DNA from: Catajapyx aquilonaris
Lineage: Eukaryota
DNA: 64,000 nt
Direction of reading: 5' to 3'
Assembly: GCA_000934665.2 (NCBI GenBank)
Contig: KZ539046.1
Span: forward strand, 1-64,000
In this document: one piece after another, positions 4,608 to 64,000 of the stretch
Layout: each line of letters begins with the position of its first letter
Position numbering within the stretch: the first letter of the stretch is position 1
Position numbers and translations under genes: made by a program
The notes under the pieces: generated by a model
The model's input: only the letters and a program-made list of their open reading frames with translations
What the model was told of the DNA's origin: nothing
Database searches by the model: none

Positions 4608-4658
4608 GTGAGTTGAGTACAGTTTAAATACTGTGTGTGTGTGTGTGTATTATATATA

Positions 4659-5220
4659 CAGGGTGTAAATGAATTCAATCGACAAACTTGTAGGGGTAAT
4701 AGAGGGGACCAAGACAAGTATTTTTGACATAGGAACCCGTGTCCGGAAACGCCATCTAGAGGGGGTTTATAGACAAGGAATGGGTGTGCTCAGACGCGTC
4801 AGGAGGGAGGCGCTAGGCGAGCGGACTGTTTTGTTGATAGATGGCGAGCAGTTGTTGCCAGGTTATGGCGTATCGCGTCGTTGTAAGCAAACAGCAACGC
4901 GATACGCCATAACCTGGCAACAACAGAACCGCTGTTTACTATCCGCGCGTCTCCTAGGAGGCGGACTTTAGTTGCTAGATGACTCTGTTGTTGCCACGTT
5001 ATGGCACATCGCATCGTTGGTTACTATCCGAGCGCCATCTATCAACATATCAGTCCGCTTGCCTAGCACCTCCTGCGTGGAGCGTCTGAGCGCACCCGTT
5101 CCTCGTCTATGAACCCCCTCTAGATGGCGTTTCCGGACACGGGTTCCTATGTCAAAAATACTTGTCTTGGTCCCCTCTATTACCCCTACAAGTTTGTCGA
5201 TTGAATTCATTTACACCCTG
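4659..5220. mobile_element. Tc1/mariner-type fold-back MITE
   Basis: CAGGGTGTAAATGAATTC...GAATTCATTTACACCCTG; inverted arms of about 200 bp or more; TA-repeat flanks on both sides. Confidence 0.9.
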
Positions 5221-5236
5221 TATATATATATATATA

Positions 5237-34648: not shown

Positions 34649-35193
34649 CTAGCTTTGCGAAATCTGCGTCAGTTGAGGCAAAGGGCGCAGTGCCTGATGA
34701 AGTCCGGACGCAGAGGGCGACGTCGCCGACGTCCCTGCCCCGGGCAAACCGGCCTTCTCCAACTGCTGGTGCTGGCTCCGAATAGCGAACCGATTGACGT
34801 GGACCGGTATGGGTACCACAATCTTGGGCCCGGCGCCCGTGGGTCCGTTCCTGGATCCGGAGGTGAGGCCGGCCTTGACCCTCTTCCACTTGGCTCTCCG
34901 GTTCTGGAACCAGATCTTGACCTGGACCTCGCTGAGCTTGAGGCTATGCGCGATCTGGGAGCGTTCAGTCAGGCTGAGGTACTTCTTGGCGTGGAACTCC
35001 TTCTCCAACTCCAGGAGCTGTTCGCTGGTAAAGGCGGTACGACGTCGCCGGGTCTTACCGCCGCTGCCACCACCGTTGCTGCTGCTCACCTCCTTCTTGT
35101 CCGGGCCCATTGGAGTCGGGGAGGAGGGGCTGGAGCTGCCATCTTCACCTCTTTCTTCCGAACACTTCTGACTAGGCTTGGATTCCGACGGGT
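34649..35193 (-). CDS. unpg: unplugged/Gbx homeobox gene, coding exon 2 (homeodomain and C-terminus)
   Basis: Homeodomain [59 protein letters not shown] followed by the Gbx-diagnostic [21 protein letters not shown]; acceptor TTGTACTTTGCAG|AC; TAG stop at 34651-34649. Spliced CDS is 951 nt (316 aa). Confidence 0.97.
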
Positions 35194-35339
35194 CTGCAAA
35201 GTACAATGGGATGCAGCGACAATGGATGAAGCAACACCAGTGGAGCCTGTTGAAACAAATGGTTATAATGTCACCAATTGACAGTGGCACCATTGATGTG
35301 ACCAGCTGCCATTTTCCAACAATAGACTTTCAATTTACT

Positions 35340-60300: not shown

Positions 60301-61200
60301 CACACATAATCATTCAGTCAAACGTCTAGGGGGAATTTCTGGGCATCAGGCACCGTCTGCACATTACGTTACAAGGTGGTGATAAAGGTGCTCCCATATA
60401 CTCTCTTCAGGCAAAGAATGATCCGAGAATACCTCCATCCATTGGAGGGACGCCATTACATCATGCACCGCCTACCCTGGCAAGATTGCAGCGACGCCTG
60501 GTCTATACCTACCGCAGCTCTAAACAGTTAGATTGCCTCTGGGCGCGATTCCTGACATGTGCTGCCAAGTGTGAGATGCAGTTAGCAATGATGAGAAGTG
60601 ATGGATCGTACCCAGTTCGAATCCCTCAGCTGCGGAATAGGAAGATGCAAGTTACTCTGGTCGGAATTAGGGCGGAAGGGACCCCAAGACATTCCTCACC
60701 CTTCCCAAGAGCTCTCGGGCGCCGACAGCCGCCTGATTATTTCGTCACGTGACCTCCGATCTTAATTGGAGTTGGCTTGACAGCTCTGTTTATCCTAATC
60801 AGGGAGGCAGCCGATGAGGAATTCTTCCTCATTTGCGACGCCTCGTATCTTATCTGCTTGTAATAACTTCGAAGCTAAAGACCCCGGTGGAGGTGGCCTA
60901 TCTGTTCTCCTCGAGAGAGATATATCGACCTGAGAGTCCTTCAAGGTAATGGGATGTTTCAGTTTGGGTGAGATGCCTTGAGGAATGGCTTCCTTTCGCT
61001 AAAAACCTTGTCAGTTAGAAGTGCGAAACATACCGGGAATTATGGGCTCGGGAAATTAAAAACCTGTCCGATTTGTTGACACGACATACCGTATATTCTA
61101 CTTCCTCCTTCTCAACTGCAGATGGAGAAGGGTAAAAAAGAAAGACCACCTTTGTCAATAATATAGTCTACCAGAAATAATGTATAATCCCAATCTGGCA

Positions 61201-61494
61201 TCAGCCAATCACCTGTATGAAAGCCTTGATGTAGTCGCCCTCTTGTATACCCAAGTAGGCTGGGGTATCACTTCCAGTACCAGCGCGACCATTCAACCGG
61301 AAATGGACCTGACACCACAACAGCTTCTGGAAATTGAGCACATCATCACATAAATCATTGCTTGCAGAGTTCTGCATTGGATTCATGTCATCAACAAACA
61401 TGATGCGGTGATGATACTGACCAGACGGTTACAAAAAAGCTGCCTTCAGCTTCTTAAACCGTGATGCGGTCTTCTTCATCATCACTTCTATCGG
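61201..61494 (-). pseudogene. Third SUMO-like unit (two exons, about 61494-61422 and 61326-61201), frameshifted as assembled
   Basis: PIEVMMKKTASRFKKLKAAF[+1 T in a T6 run]CNRL|GTCAGT ... TTTCCAG|KLLWCQVHFRLNGRAGTGSDTPAYLGIQEGDYIKAFIQVIG*; intron at the same position as in units A and B. The 5' boundary is uncertain. Confidence 0.7.
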
Positions 61495-61647
61495 CTGAAG
61501 TAAAGTATGCGGCCCATTAGCCGAATCAATTAGGAAACAGTACCTGAGGCTTGCAGACCCTTTGCATCGGTGTTTGGTGTGGGTTTAAAGTGGGGGAAGT
61601 GACCAGGGACCCCGGACTGAGCTCGACCAGAATGCAGCCGATCTAGT

Positions 61648-61711
<64 letters not shown>

Positions 61712-61726
61712 TTATCTATTTATCTA
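61648..61726. repeat. (TATC)n microsatellite
   Basis: Direct tandem TATC run abutting the Tc1/mariner TIR. Confidence 0.95.
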
Positions 61727-61733
61727 CATTCTG

Positions 61734-62543
61734 CAGGGTGTTCCAGAGTTGATGACTCACTCTTTGAAACGCAATAATTACTTTCGAACGGAACAACATA
61801 TATTTATTTAAAGTACGCGCCAAACCAGCAAGGGAGGGTGCGAAAATCTTCCATGTATAAGTGGCCGCAGCAATGCTCAGGTTTTGCAACAAAAATGACC
61901 GAAGCAAGACTGTCGTTAGAGAAACGTGTCCAGTGTGTTCGACTATATTCAGTGACAAAAAATGTTACAGAAATGTGCCGTCAAATGGTAAACCTTTTCG
62001 GTGGACCAGCTCCTACCCGAAAAAACTGTTGCGAGAATAAACCAACGCAACGCGGGTTCAATGAAACTGGATGTGTCTTGGATCAAAAGAAACCCGGCAA
62101 AGGGAGAACAGTTCTGAACGCAGAAAACAAACAGCGCATCCGAGATGTACTGGAAAGTTCTCCAGCAAAAGCAAAATAAGTCCGACGCCTCTCTCTTGTG
62201 AGGTTATCTGAAGGAAAAGGTTTACCACCATCGAATCGACTCCCTGGAGCATCTGCGTGACATAATCACACAGGAGTTCAACGCGATCCCTGTTGGGAAG
62301 GCGTGCGACAACGTCGCCTTGCGATTGCAGGCCTGCATCGATGTGGAAGGGGGGTGGTTGACCATATAACCATGGAGAACAGGTATTAAGTTAGTATTTC
62401 TATGTAAGAGTGTGTTTGACTATGCCATTTGTTTTCCTTATCGCCTTTGTACTGTGAGAGGGTACGTACTTTAAATAAATATGTTGTTCCGTTCGAAAGT
62501 AATTGCGTTTCAAAGAGTGAGTCATCAACTCTGGAACACCCTG
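61734..62543 (+). mobile_element. Internally deleted Tc1/mariner-superfamily transposon
   Basis: About 80-bp TIRs CAGGGTGTTCCAGAGTTGATGACTCAC.../...GTGAGTCATCAACTCTGGAACACCCTG followed by TA; N-terminal HTH fragment (MTEARLSLEKRVQCVRLYS...FNETGCVLD) joined to a C-terminal fragment (..ACDNVALRLQACIDVEGG); the catalytic core is missing. Confidence 0.88.
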
Positions 62544-63201
62544 TAGTTTAAGATCTAGGTTATGAACAAACACTCCAACGACGCCAACTTACGGAAATTG
62601 AAAATTCTGGAGGTTGGCAACAAAATAAACAAACCTGTTTGTTACACTGAACTGTGCTTTATTATTATTTTCGGGTCTTCGGGGATTCTATTCGGCCTTC
62701 TATTATTCTGTCATCCGCCAAATCAATGTTAAACTCGATGAACTCTGACTTCAAGTCAGGCTATGGATTAAGTGGGGGGAAAGACACAATCAGTATAGTC
62801 GTCAAAGTGTGTGAAATTGCACTGCTGTTTTAAAGTATTAACAATAATGAACATAGAGAGAACTTGAAATCTTTGGTAGCGAGTGCTCGAAAACAAGGGA
62901 GTGGCGTGGTATATCCTTTCCAACAGACCAGCATGTCCTCTTTCGCTCAACTCTCGTTGCCCAGCTCAGCTTCCATGGAATCCAGGATTACAGCTCAATC
63001 TATGAGCCTCATAGATTAGGACCTACATACACAATAACTGCAAAACCCATGATCAATAATAAATGCATAAGTTACTAGAGGGTGATCTTCATTATTCATA
63101 ATTATATAGTTGGTTGCAGTTTTTTAAGCACAACAAGGTGATCCAGCCAAACGTGTTCAGGGTTTACTATTAATCACAGACTCCAGCCGAATTGTACTAA
63201 C

Positions 63202-63333
63202 CTAGGCAGCTGGAGCTTTTAGTATGTTGACATGAATGGGATCTTCGTCCTCCATGCCTAAGGAAGCGGGAGTGTGGCCGTCATGGATCTGCTGGCCATT
63301 GAACATGAAGACAACAGTAGACCTCAACAGCCC
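63202..63333 (-). CDS. Tandem SUMO-like gene: exon encoding the C-half of unit B, ending in a stop
   Basis: [54 protein letters not shown], immediately followed by donor-like GTTAGT; 132 nt; not present in the supplied ORF track. Confidence 0.82.
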
Positions 63334-63458
63334 CTGAAAATAGATCACACTTCATGAGTTCACAGCATTATTCCAATGGACTCGAACGGTCTGGAAACCA
63401 TTGCTCTCAGCCAAATCTGAACATGATCATATCGGAGAAAATAAGTGGAAGTACCGAC

Positions 63459-63584
63459 CCGCAGCTCGCAATACTGATCCATCACGTAGGCAAAGTTTGT
63501 GGTCGTCTTCAATTTAATTTTTACGAGATGCCCATCCTGACCAAAGGCATTCACGATGATTATCTTAGGCTCCAGCTTGTGATT
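63459..63584 (-). CDS. Tandem SUMO-like gene: exon encoding the linker and N-half of unit B
   Basis: CAATCATAG|NHKLEPKIIIVNAFGQDGHLVKIKLKTTTNFAYVMDQYCELR|GTCGGT; 126 nt, phase 0/0; aligns with SUMO '[34 protein letters not shown]'. Confidence 0.82.
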
Positions 63585-63756
63585 CTATGATTGGAATAGA
63601 GAAAGAAATCCCAGAGTAAATTATGTGCTCTAAATTATTTGTAGTCATAACCAATAAGAGGGGTAGGCTATAGCAGCAAGAAGTACTCTGGCCACGAGTA
63701 AATATTATTGTAATTGATAGGTTCGTTCCGTAGTTGTATGACTTGCTGTATCTCAC

Positions 63757-63867
63757 CTGTATAACATGGATAGTGTCTCCCTCTTGCATACCCAAGGAGG
63801 CAGGGGTGGCACTTTCAGCGACTTGGTGACCATTGAACAGGAAATTAACATCTGACCTCACCAGCTT
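63757..63867 (-). CDS. Tandem SUMO-like gene: exon encoding the C-half of SUMO-like unit A (gene starts beyond the window)
   Basis: TTTCTAG|KLVRSDVNFLFNGHQVAESATPASLGMQEGDTIHVIQ|GTGAGA; 111 nt, phase 0/0; matches SUMO '[29 protein letters not shown]' but has no GG. Confidence 0.82.
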
Positions 63868-64000
63868 CTAGAAATATGGCAACGTCATGGGATCATACCA
63901 AATAATCATTGCATGATTGTTGCACAAGCTGAATGACACCACAGTCTAATTTTTTCCAGCCAATTAATTTATTCCACCACATAAAGAATTTCTAGGTAAG

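What the first reader, a model, noticed from the sequence alone, without database searches (positions are those of the whole stretch)
63202..63867. Spliced gene encoding head-to-tail SUMO-like domains with no di-glycine (poly-SUMO-like protein)
Seen: three phase-0 exons (63867-63757, 63584-63459, 63333-63202) with GT-AG boundaries join into an open frame containing the C-half of one SUMO-like domain, a short linker (NHKLEPK) and a complete second domain. Neither domain ends in GG, and both have FNG where SUMO has FDG. Known: the intron after YCExR/Q matches the position in canonical animal SUMO genes, and GQDG/YCE/TPxxLxMEDED resemble SUMO itself more than the SLDs of Rad60/Esc2/NIP45; tandem di-SUMO-like proteins are described in cereals (DSUL). 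Inference: a lineage-specific gene made by intragenic duplication of a SUMO gene, encoding a non-conjugatable, non-cleavable SUMO-chain mimic that could bind SIM proteins, STUbLs or Ubc9. The total number of units is unknown because the gene runs off the window.
Basis: partly seen in the sequence, partly recalled or inferred. Interest (0 to 1): 0.8.

Follow-up and report, generated by a model that had tools for sequence, protein, structure and literature searches.

The report
SUMO-derived multi-domain gene without di-glycine
The end of this arthropod-type DNA window holds the last three exons of a gene that strings SUMO-like domains head to tail without the two glycines needed for cutting or attachment, an arrangement that looks selectively maintained but proves to be a recurrent and already described kind of SUMO offshoot.

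Summary
Three phase-0, AG..GT-bounded exons on the minus strand (63867-63757, 63584-63459, 63333-63202) encode the C-half of one SUMO-like domain, a 7-8 residue linker and a complete second domain. There is no GG anywhere, and Asn stands in the FDG/FEG motif.

- **Origin.** The units are SUMO-derived, not NFATC2IP/Rad60-type. Their best single-domain matches in 1.84 billion representatives are canonical QQQTGG SUMOs. Unit 2 is 45% identical to these and 28-29% to an NFATC2IP-like protein.
- **Selection.** The two intact C-halves differ mostly at synonymous sites (dN/dS about 0.2, P=0.001). A third copy 2 kb downstream is a frameshifted relic behind a transposon.
- **Relatives.** No close orthologue, RNA run or genome was available.
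- **Novelty.** The architecture is not unique. 69 of 147 classified hits have two or more SUMO-like domains and no GG, from plants, a nematode, a fish, a fungus and haptophytes. Grass GSUL2/DSUL concatemers are in print.
- **Earlier scan notes.** The scan noted SUMO-derived arrays before on other DNA of this genome (e1-7682377, e1-7682378). It also noted this same stretch as a 7-exon, three-domain gene (e1-7683507).
- **Function.** The proposed role, a free decoy or scaffold for poly-SUMO readers, is inferred only.

The parts
63868..64000 (-). 3' part of the intron that precedes the first visible exon; the gene continues beyond the window
   Evidence: no SUMO-like frame here, and it ends in the acceptor ...tttctag; no N-half match in these bases.
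63757..63867 (-). Exon: C-half of the penultimate SUMO-like domain (unit 1C), 37 codons, phase 0-0, ending IHVIQ without GG
   Evidence: Pfam Rad60-SLD E 2e-7.
63585..63756 (-). Intron, 172 nt, GT..AG, lying exactly at the boundary between two domains
63459..63584 (-). Exon: linker NHKLEPK plus the N-half of the last domain (beta1-beta2-alpha1, GQDG ... YCELR), 42 codons, phase 0-0
   Evidence: Pfam Rad60-SLD E 0.065 over profile positions 7-33. Best local matches are N-halves of canonical SUMOs, 15-17 bits.
63334..63458 (-). Intron, 125 nt, GT..AG, at the position after YC..R that canonical animal SUMO genes also use
   Evidence: ORF fragments (P0077, P0110, P0098, P0113, P0120, P0129) switch from non-SUMO residues ending in Q (CAG) to KL../GL.. 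at this same alignment position.
63202..63333 (-). Terminal coding exon: C-half of the last domain, tail NILKAPAA, stop TAG at 63204-63202
   Evidence: Pfam Rad60-SLD E 5.8e-8.
62658..62663 (-). Only AATAAA within 900 nt downstream of the stop (538 nt after it); candidate poly(A) signal
   Evidence: Consensus match only.
61731..62546 (.). Non-autonomous DNA transposon with about 71-nt terminal inverted repeats (61731-61801 / 62479-62546, 98-100% complementary), between the gene's end and the relic unit
   Evidence: Its internal ORFs have no Pfam match.
61422..61494 (-). Relic N-half exon of a third unit: ..IEVMMKKTASRFKKLKAAFL then a stop. The C-terminal ..QLFCNRL before the donor gtcagt is in the +1 frame, so the exon is frameshifted. 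The GQDG part is missing.
   Evidence: Read by eye against canonical SUMO. Not detected by phmmer with the unit-2 N-half.
61213..61326 (-). Relic C-half exon of a third unit (KLLWCQVHFRLNGRAGTGSDTPAYLGIQEGDYIKAFIQ); AG and GT kept; evolving near neutrally
   Evidence: 72% nt identity to unit 1C, confined to the exon plus about 20 nt. dN/dS 0.86; differences by codon position 8/10/12.

Best explanation
This is the 3' end of a real, lineage-specific gene. It arose by DNA-level duplication of a two-exon SUMO module (N-half exon plus C-half exon, both phase 0-0). It encodes a chain of SUMO folds joined by 7-8 residue linkers. An earlier, untested note says three folds; one and a half lie in this window.

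No unit ends in Gly-Gly, so the product can be neither cut into monomers by SENP-type proteases nor activated and attached by E1/E2. It must act as a free protein.

The most likely mode of action is non-covalent, and this part is inferred, not shown. Several SIM-binding grooves on one polypeptide could engage proteins that carry SIM arrays, such as an RNF4/Degringolade-type STUbL, chain-specific SENPs or PIAS-type ligases. The protein would then be a protease-resistant decoy or scaffold that mimics a poly-SUMO chain.

Binding to the back of Ubc9 is less likely. The acidic residue at the position of SUMO1 Glu67 is Asn in all three copies, and Glu89 is His in both intact units.

A frameshifted third unit 2 kb downstream, behind a transposon, is a decayed copy of the same module.
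For: Shown:
- Exon structure, frames and splice sites.
- SUMO/Rad60-SLD domain matches.
- Best solved-structure matches per domain are SUMO1 (31 bits, E 1.3e-6), then SUMO2/3 (about 25 bits). No NFATC2IP, Rad60 or Esc2 chain is among the 60 shown of 102 matches.
- Best single-domain matches in 1.84e9 representatives are canonical SUMOs ending QQQTGG, at 41-48 bits.
- Unit 2 is 30/66 identical to canonical SUMOs P0112 and P0114, against 17/60 and 19/66 to the two SLDs of a Selaginella NFATC2IP-like protein. The phmmer domain scores are 48-53 bits against 20-25 bits.
- Purifying selection between the two intact C-halves: pS 0.63, pN 0.25, dN/dS 0.21, Fisher P=0.001. Differences by codon position are 11/6/18 of 35 each. 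The relic shows 0.86 and 8/10/12.
- Hydrophobic core and SIM-groove positions are conservatively kept in unit 2 (F36>I, V38>L, I34>V, L44>F, L47>V, K37 and K39 kept). H43>N, K46>Y, K78>A, E67>N and E89>H change the charged rim. This comes from the alignment. Residue roles come from PMC12687455, sections 8 and 20. The SUMO1 numbering is partly recalled.

Precedent:
- A Gly-Gly-less engineered SUMO2 acts in cells as a free inhibitor of poly-SUMOylation (PMC12687455, section 20).

Context from unchecked AI notes:
- SUMO-derived arrays elsewhere in this genome, and a 7-exon triple-domain reading of this same gene.
Against: - No transcript evidence.
- No orthologue in another species. The closest library proteins are canonical SUMOs at 41-45% identity, and unit 2 sits on a long unresolved branch.
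- The selection test rests on 35 codons. It averages over the whole time since the units split, so recent loss of function is not excluded.
- The gene lies next to a decayed copy and a young transposon.
- Two of the basic residues that flank the SIM groove are lost (K46>Y, H43>N), so SIM binding may be weak or altered.
- No fold or complex could be predicted, because the spliced protein is not a contiguous translation of the window.
Confidence: 0.55

Rival explanations
1. A silent or dying duplicate. The exons are leftovers of a SUMO-derived tandem array that is no longer expressed or no longer useful. The open frame survives only because the decay is recent.
For: - A relic unit with a frameshift and flat codon-position differences lies 2 kb away.
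- A transposon is inserted between them.
- The stop codon lies directly before a donor-like gttagt. This could mean a nonsense change cut off a longer gene.
- No close relative in 1.84e9 representatives.
Against: - dN/dS 0.21 with near-saturated synonymous sites between the two intact units.
- All six splice signals are intact and 122 codons are open.
- Core residues of the fold are kept.
Confidence: 0.25
2. A Ubc9 regulator. The SUMO-like domains bind the back of the SUMO E2, as SLD2 of NFATC2IP/Rad60/Esc2 or a back-bound SUMO does. They would tune (inhibit or stimulate) chain building or E3 activity rather than bind SIM proteins.
For: - The acidic stretch at SUMO1 positions 83-86 is kept in unit 2 (EDED) and partly in unit 1 (QEGD).
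- This stretch contacts Ubc9 Arg17/Lys18 (PMC12687455, section 20).
- A GG-less SUMO2 variant that binds the back of UBC9 inhibits poly-SUMOylation (same section).
Against: - The partner residue Glu67 is Asn in all three copies, and Glu89 is His in both intact units.
- Charge reversal at the equivalent Asp of SUMO3 (D62R) or of NFATC2IP SLD2 (D394R, equal to Rad60 E380R) abolishes UBC9 binding (PMC6391914 passage; PMC11065178, section 9). That these positions are equivalent is recalled, not shown by a call.
- Asn is milder than Arg, so this does not exclude binding.
Confidence: 0.12
3. The arthropod orthologue of NFATC2IP/Rad60/Esc2 (RENi family), seen only through its two C-terminal SUMO-like domains.
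For: - Two SUMO-like domains without GG at the C-terminus of a protein; Pfam names the domain Rad60-SLD.
- The N-terminus is off the window.
Against: - The units score and align far better with SUMO proper than with an NFATC2IP-like protein.
- None of the 60 best solved chains shown is a RENi protein.
- The canonical SUMO motifs GQDG, YC.R and TP..LGMEDED are kept.
- The SUMO intron position is kept.
- The acidic Ubc9-binding residue is missing.
- An unchecked note reads the whole gene as a compact seven-exon, three-domain gene.
Confidence: 0.04

Closest known systems
Grass GSUL2/DSUL locus: SUMO-like genes and head-to-tail UBL concatemers (maize DiSUMO-like; rice Os07g38700/Os07g38710). Hammoudi et al. 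2016, PMC6680281 (section 17 and the Fig. 7 legend read). DSUL function cited there and in PMC6512914 (passages read).
   Same: - SUMO-derived domains fused head to tail in one reading frame.
- Several have lost internal and/or C-terminal di-glycine.
- They arise at fast-changing loci by tandem duplication and fusion.
- Fusion happened independently in different lineages.
   Different: - Plants, not animals; an independent origin.
- DSUL itself keeps a C-terminal diGly and has its own conjugation targets (PMC6512914 passages), whereas nothing here can be conjugated.
- Here each unit is a two-exon module with symmetric phases.
Canonical arthropod/animal SUMO (Smt3, SUMO2/3-type; e.g. library proteins P0112, P0091, P0114)
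   Same: - Same fold family, with the GQDG, YC.R, F.F.G and TP..LGMEDED motifs.
- 42-45% identity over 66 columns for unit 2.
- Same intron position before [K/G]L.
   Different: - No QQTGG tail and no free N-terminal tail.
- Asn for Asp/Glu in F[DE]G; His for Glu89.
- Several units in one chain.
- A long branch (0.98 changes per column).
RENi family: NFATC2IP/NIP45, Rad60, Esc2 (PMC11065178 abstract and section 9; PMC12687455 section 6)
   Same: Tandem SUMO-like domains that are never conjugated and act by non-covalent binding inside the SUMO pathway.
   Different: - RENi SLDs are much further from SUMO (28-29% against 45% here).
- They follow a long N-terminal region.
- SLD2 needs an acidic residue to bind UBC9, which is Asn here.
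Uncharacterised multi-SUMO-like-domain proteins without GG in public collections (e.g. Steinernema glaseri A0A1I7Y0R9, Medicago truncatula G7ZWR8, Ipomoea nil XP_019162380, Engraulis encrasicolus XP_063067418, Rhizophagus clarus GES76377)
   Same: - 2-14 SUMO-like domains per protein and no di-glycine.
- Domains of one protein often cluster together, meaning intragenic duplication.
- Asn is frequent at the F[DE]G position.
   Different: - None is close in sequence to this gene.
- None of the 10 named ones (of 30 looked up) is an arthropod.
- No function is described for any of them in the sources.
Enzymatically built poly-SUMO chains and their readers. In insects SUMO3 cannot form chains, and ectopic chain-forming human SUMO3 is harmful in Drosophila (Urena et al. 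2016, PMC4866545, abstract read).
   Same: Several SUMO folds in a row, the signal read by multi-SIM proteins.
   Different: - Peptide-bonded head to tail through short linkers, not isopeptide-linked at an N-terminal lysine.
- Not attached to a substrate.
- Not removable by SENPs.

Membership tests
Canonical conjugatable SUMO | SUMO-type beta-grasp domain | tested here: met
   Pfam PF11976: E 2e-7 and 5.8e-8 for the two C-half exons, 0.065 for the N-half exon. SUMO1 and SUMO2/3 are the best single-domain solved chains.
Canonical conjugatable SUMO | C-terminal Gly-Gly exposed by SENP/Ulp processing | tested here: not met
   Unit 1 ends IHVIQ and runs straight into NHKLEPK. Unit 2 ends [11 protein letters not shown] and then a stop. 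There is no GG in the 122 residues.
Canonical conjugatable SUMO | Acidic residue at SUMO1 Glu67 / SUMO2 Asp63 (F[DE]G) for the Ubc9 back contact | tested here: not met
   Asn in all three copies. D/E stands there in 92 of 109 GG-bearing library domains.
Canonical conjugatable SUMO | Intron between YC..[RQS] and [GK]L, phase 0 | tested here: inconclusive
   Present here. In canonical genes it is inferred only from six ORF fragments that change from junk ending in Q to SUMO sequence at that point. No canonical gene structure was examined directly.
RENi (NFATC2IP/Rad60/Esc2) | Exactly two SLDs at the C-terminus after a long SIM-bearing N-terminal region | not testable with these tools
   The 5' part lies beyond base 64000 and no genome is held. 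An unchecked note speaks of seven exons and three domains.
RENi (NFATC2IP/Rad60/Esc2) | SLD sequences closer to RENi SLDs than to SUMO | tested here: not met
   Unit 2 against canonical SUMO: 45% identity, 48-53 bits. Against Selaginella NFATC2IP-like P0043: 28-29%, 20-25 bits. Only one RENi-labelled comparator, a plant one, was at hand, plus a Medicago protein with that label (24-33%).
RENi (NFATC2IP/Rad60/Esc2) | Acidic residue in SLD2 needed for UBC9 binding (NFATC2IP D394, Rad60 E380) | tested here: not met
   Asn at the aligned F.G position. The role of D394/E380 comes from PMC11065178, section 9. Their equivalence with this column is recalled.
SUMO-like concatemers without diGly (GSUL2/DSUL kind) | Two or more SUMO-derived UBL domains head to tail in one reading frame | tested here: met
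   One and a half domains are joined in frame through phase-0 introns within the window. The total number was not seen.
SUMO-like concatemers without diGly (GSUL2/DSUL kind) | Loss of internal and/or terminal di-glycine | tested here: met
SUMO-like concatemers without diGly (GSUL2/DSUL kind) | Common descent with the grass genes | tested here: not met
   Leersia GSUL2-type P0033 and the other plant proteins are not near unit 2 in the domain tree, where unit 2 is unresolved. The likeness is one of kind, not of family.
Polyubiquitin-type cleavable precursor | GG at the end of every repeat, so that monomers are released | tested here: not met
   By contrast, 16 of 147 classified library hits are multi-unit SUMOs with GG after every unit.

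The most novel reading that the evidence does not exclude
Arthropods of this lineage may encode ready-made, protease-proof poly-SUMO chains in the genome, through a fast-evolving gene family. Insect SUMO3 is reported not to build chains enzymatically (PMC4866545, abstract). These proteins would then supply or jam the chain signal read by multi-SIM factors such as the STUbL Degringolade. Their rapid turnover (relic copies, arrays elsewhere in the genome) would reflect a genetic conflict, for example with viruses or transposons that depend on the SUMO pathway.
Probability: 0.15. Interest if true: 0.7.

Novelty: new member of a known kind. Interest (0 to 1): 0.4.

Why it matters
Poly-SUMO chains are read by proteins with several SUMO-binding motifs and normally exist only as reversible enzyme products. 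A gene that hard-wires several SUMO folds into one uncuttable, unattachable protein would be a natural decoy or scaffold for those readers. It would be a ready tool for probing chain recognition in animals.

The survey made here also shows that such genes have arisen many times: in plants, a nematode, a fish, a fungus, haptophytes and many unnamed transcripts. Loss of the di-glycine often goes with loss of the acidic Ubc9-contact residue. I found almost none of this discussed outside the grasses. This locus is one more example, and by itself it is incomplete and without expression data.

Tried and rejected
- **Whole genome.** None is held, so the gene could not be extended beyond 64000, and neither the canonical SUMO nor an NFATC2IP orthologue could be looked for.
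- **Sequencing runs.** No RNA holder was listed for 61000-64000.
- **Word-index protein searches.** The last exon gave 1 candidate and none scored. The N-half exon gave no candidate.
- **Earlier findings by sequence.** Nothing.
- **More units in the window.** A profile of the three C-halves and phmmer with the N-half, run over all six frames, found only the three C-halves and the one N-half; the next best E was 0.28.
- **Intron homology between unit 1 and the relic.** DNA similarity stops about 20 nt outside the exon, so introns gave no neutral yardstick.
- **Domain tree.** It held 163 near-full-length library domains scoring 30 bits or more, chosen from 364 domain calls (the others were dropped as partial or weak), plus unit 2. 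Unit 2 is on a long branch with no supported partner, so no donor lineage can be named.
- **Protein Atlas with the last exon.** Only generic Rad60-SLD/SUMO2 clusters, best score 0.93.
- **Structure and complex prediction.** Not run. The tools take only contiguous translations of the window, and half a domain would give a meaningless model.
- **Idea that the stop was made by a CAG-to-TAG change at an old donor (TAG|gttagt).** Considered and left open. An alternative is that the old donor after ..ATA C.. was lost and the tail LKAPAA is former intron. Neither can be tested without relatives.
- **Literature.** Seven searches were run. Five bore on whether an animal multi-SUMO-like gene of this kind is in print: 'SUMO-like/tandem/di-glycine/arthropod' (17), 'SUMO-like domains/head-to-tail/polySUMO mimic' (20), 'SUMO-like/concatemer' (39), 'tandem SUMO-like ...' (49) and 'Smt3/SUMO paralog/insects ...' (62). 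None found such a paper. Searches (D63R/Ubc9 backside; DSUL) were for mechanism and the plant precedent. The insect SUMO paper PMC4866545 has 0 occurrences of SUMO-like, tandem, pseudogene or intron.
Full report
**1. What is in the sequence**

On the minus strand three exons are bounded by AG and GT and are each a multiple of three bases long.
- 63867-63757 reads KLVRSDVNFLFNGHQVAESATPASLGMQEGDTIHVIQ.
- 63584-63459 reads NHKLEPKIIIVNAFGQDGHLVKIKLKTTTNFAYVMDQYCELR.
- 63333-63202 reads [43 protein letters not shown], followed by TAG.

The introns between them are 172 and 125 nt. Bases 63868-64000 are intron, so the gene leaves the window.

Pfam's Rad60-SLD family, which includes SUMO itself, matches the two C-half exons independently: E 2e-7 and 5.8e-8, over profile positions 40-71/72. 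It matches the N-half exon weakly: E 0.065, over positions 7-33. The pieces therefore make the second half of one domain, a linker of 7-8 residues (Q-NHKLEPK), and one full domain.

There is no Gly-Gly anywhere. Both C-halves have FNG where SUMO has FDG/FEG. A run of 122 stop-free codons has a chance of about 6e-4 at this composition.

**2. A third, broken unit**

A tblastn and a profile search of all six frames found just one more copy, at 61326-61213. It is a C-half exon with its AG and GT kept, reading KLLWCQVHFRLNGRAGTGSDTPAYLGIQEGDYIKAFIQ.

Upstream of it, 61494-61422 reads ..IEVMMKKTASRFKKLKAAFL and then a stop. The expected end ..QLFCNRL, before a donor gtcagt, lies in the +1 frame. The GQDG part is missing. 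This N-half is thus frameshifted and truncated.

Between this relic and the intact gene lies an 816-bp element with about 71-nt terminal inverted repeats that are 98-100% complementary, a young non-autonomous DNA transposon. Next to it is a (TAGA)n microsatellite. DNA similarity between unit 1C and the relic is 72%, and it stops about 20 nt outside the exon.

**3. SUMO proper or NFATC2IP/Rad60?**

- **Solved structures.** Against all solved chains, the last exon's best single-domain matches are SUMO1 (31 bits, E 1.3e-6), then SUMO2/3 (about 25 bits). The polyubiquitin chains at the top score only by adding nine 6-bit repeats. No RENi chain is among the 60 shown of 102 matches.
- **Representative library.** A profile of the three C-halves was scored against 1.84 billion representatives. 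It gave 536 proteins at E of 0.001 or below, of which 150 were listed. Ranked by single domains, the best are canonical SUMOs ending QQQTGG, at 41-48 bits. Several are of the type ..SAYCARS KL.QSTVRFRFDG.., which shares the K-L start of the C-half with unit 1.
- **Identity.** The spliced unit 2 was joined only inside scripts. It is 30/66 identical to canonical SUMOs P0112 and P0114. It is 17/60 and 19/66 identical to the two domains of a Selaginella protein named NFATC2IP-like. The phmmer domain scores are 48-53 bits against 20-25 bits.
- **Intron position.** Six short ORF fragments in the library (P0077, P0110, P0098, P0113, P0120, P0129) change from non-SUMO residues ending in Q (a CAG acceptor read in frame) to KL../GL.. 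at exactly the alignment position of the intron inside unit 2.

The RENi reading is therefore disfavoured. Only plant-labelled RENi-like comparators were at hand.

**4. Alive or dead?**

The two intact C-halves are old duplicates. Over 35 codons, 15 of about 24 synonymous sites differ, against 20 of about 81 non-synonymous sites (pS 0.63, pN 0.25, dN/dS 0.21, Fisher P=0.001). Differences fall 11/6/18 on codon positions 1/2/3. The relic compared with unit 1C gives dN/dS 0.86 and 8/10/12, as expected for drift.

The hydrophobic positions of the fold are conservatively kept in unit 2 (alignment).

Against a live gene:
- No RNA run was listed.
- No genome is held.
- Two word-index searches found nothing.
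- In the library no protein is closer than canonical SUMO.
- In a tree of 163 library domains plus unit 2, unit 2 sits on a 0.98 branch without a supported partner.

The selection signal is real but short. It averages over the whole history, so a recent death cannot be excluded. I put a live gene at about 0.55-0.6.

**5. How it would work**

Without Gly-Gly there is no SENP maturation site, no E1 adenylation and no conjugation. This follows from the established chemistry of the pathway (PMC12687455). The product must act as a free chain of SUMO folds.

I mapped unit 2 on SUMO1 using the alignment. Residue roles come from PMC12687455, sections 8 and 20. The numbering is partly from my own recall, anchored on the residues the review names.
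- The SIM-groove hydrophobics are kept in kind (I34>V, F36>I, V38>L, L44>F, L47>V), and so are K37 and K39.
- H43>N, K46>Y and K78>A thin out the basic rim.
- On the opposite face the acidic patch is half erased. E67>N in all three copies and E89>H in both intact units, while 83-86 stay EDED (unit 2) or QEGD (unit 1).

Glu67 and 83-86 are the contacts to Ubc9 Arg17/Lys18 (section 20). Charge reversal of the corresponding Asp in SUMO3 abolishes backside-dependent chain formation (PMC6391914, passage). D394R in NFATC2IP SLD2, equal to Rad60 E380R, abolishes UBC9 binding (PMC11065178, section 9). The column equivalence is recalled.

I therefore favour multivalent SIM-groove binding, that is a decoy or scaffold for poly-SUMO readers, over Ubc9 back-binding. 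Nothing here shows either.

All coding exons are phase 0-0. Units can therefore be gained, lost or skipped without breaking the frame, which fits the turnover seen.

**6. How unusual is it?**

Much less than it looks. I classified the 150 listed library hits with a SUMO-domain model built from six canonical hits; 147 got domain calls.
- 69 have two or more domains and no GG at any domain end.
- 30 have some GG.
- 16 have GG after every unit.
- 19 are single domains with GG.
- 13 are single domains without GG.

The list is enriched for multi-domain proteins because scores add up.

Of 30 hits looked up, 10 clusters carry an organism name: Rhizophagus clarus, Steinernema glaseri, Medicago truncatula, Ipomoea nil, Arabidopsis suecica, Leersia perrieri, Selaginella moellendorffii, Engraulis encrasicolus, and the haptophytes Phaeocystis and Prymnesium. 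None is an arthropod. Many others sit on 1-3 kb contigs without introns.

In the tree, domains of one protein often cluster together (P0038, P0039, P0011, P0088, P0063, P0084). Intragenic duplication is therefore recurrent.

At the F[DE]G column, GG-bearing domains have D/E in 92 of 109 and N in 6. GG-less domains have D/E in 86 of 255 and N in 91. Two caveats apply: the query profile itself carries N, and near-identical repeats within a protein are counted separately. This is a lead, not a result.

In print, grass GSUL2/DSUL concatemers, some without internal or terminal diGly and arisen by independent fusions, are the described kind (PMC6680281, section 17).

Of seven literature searches, the five that bore on this question found no animal counterpart. 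The main paper on insect SUMO evolution does not mention one. That paper's abstract states that insect SUMO3 cannot form chains, which would give an encoded chain some interest.

**7. Earlier notes of this scan (AI notes, unchecked)**

The same stretch was read in an overlapping window as a 7-exon gene with three SUMO-like domains spanning 3067 bases (e1-7683507). On other pieces of the same genome the scan noted an array of about eight SUMO-derived genes behind an ordinary SUMO gene, and two three-domain fusion genes (e1-7682377, e1-7682378). I could not test these. If right, this locus is a dispersed member of a lineage-specific family.

**8. Setting**

The window is animal-type. An exon at 35329-34649 (minus strand) encodes a homeodomain (E 1.8e-24). 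Its best named matches are insect 'unplugged' and GBX proteins. The SUMO-like gene lies about 28 kb from it.

**Verdict**

The SUMO-derived, non-conjugatable, head-to-tail reading is supported. Function and expression are open. It is a new, independently arisen member of an already described and widespread kind, of moderate interest.

Noticed in passing
window 34649-35329 (-): Open frame with a complete homeodomain (Pfam E 1.8e-24). Its best named relatives are insect 'homeobox protein unplugged' and GBX-1/2, so the window carries the Gbx/unplugged gene about 28 kb from the SUMO-like gene.
   Followed up: partly
window 61731-62546: 816-bp element with about 71-nt terminal inverted repeats (98-100% complementary) and a short internal ORF without Pfam match. 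A young non-autonomous DNA transposon.
   Followed up: partly
window about 61649-61727: (TAGA)n microsatellite of about 20 units, directly beside the transposon end.
   Followed up: no
window 61100-61135 (-): After the relic C-half exon's donor comes a short AG..GT-bounded piece reading LRRRK and then a stop in phase 0. It may be the old terminal exon of the decayed copy or chance.
   Followed up: no
window 4653-4703 and 5176-5226: The same 17-residue translation appears on opposite strands about 500 bp apart (tblastn noise rows). It suggests an inverted repeat, perhaps another transposon.
   Followed up: no
library proteins P0005-P0154 (not in the window): Among SUMO-like domains of public proteins, loss of the C-terminal GG goes with loss of the acidic residue in F[DE]G. 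D/E stands there in 92/109 domains with GG and 86/255 without; Asn is the commonest replacement (91/255). The query was biased towards Asn and repeats are not independent, so it needs a clean census.
   Followed up: partly
library proteins P0006, P0016, P0031, P0019: Very long proteins with 6-14 near-identical SUMO-like domains (FEFNG.., no GG) separated by about 45-residue Pro/Glu/Gln-rich spacers, from large unnamed eukaryotic contigs. A different and more extreme poly-SUMO-like architecture.
   Followed up: no
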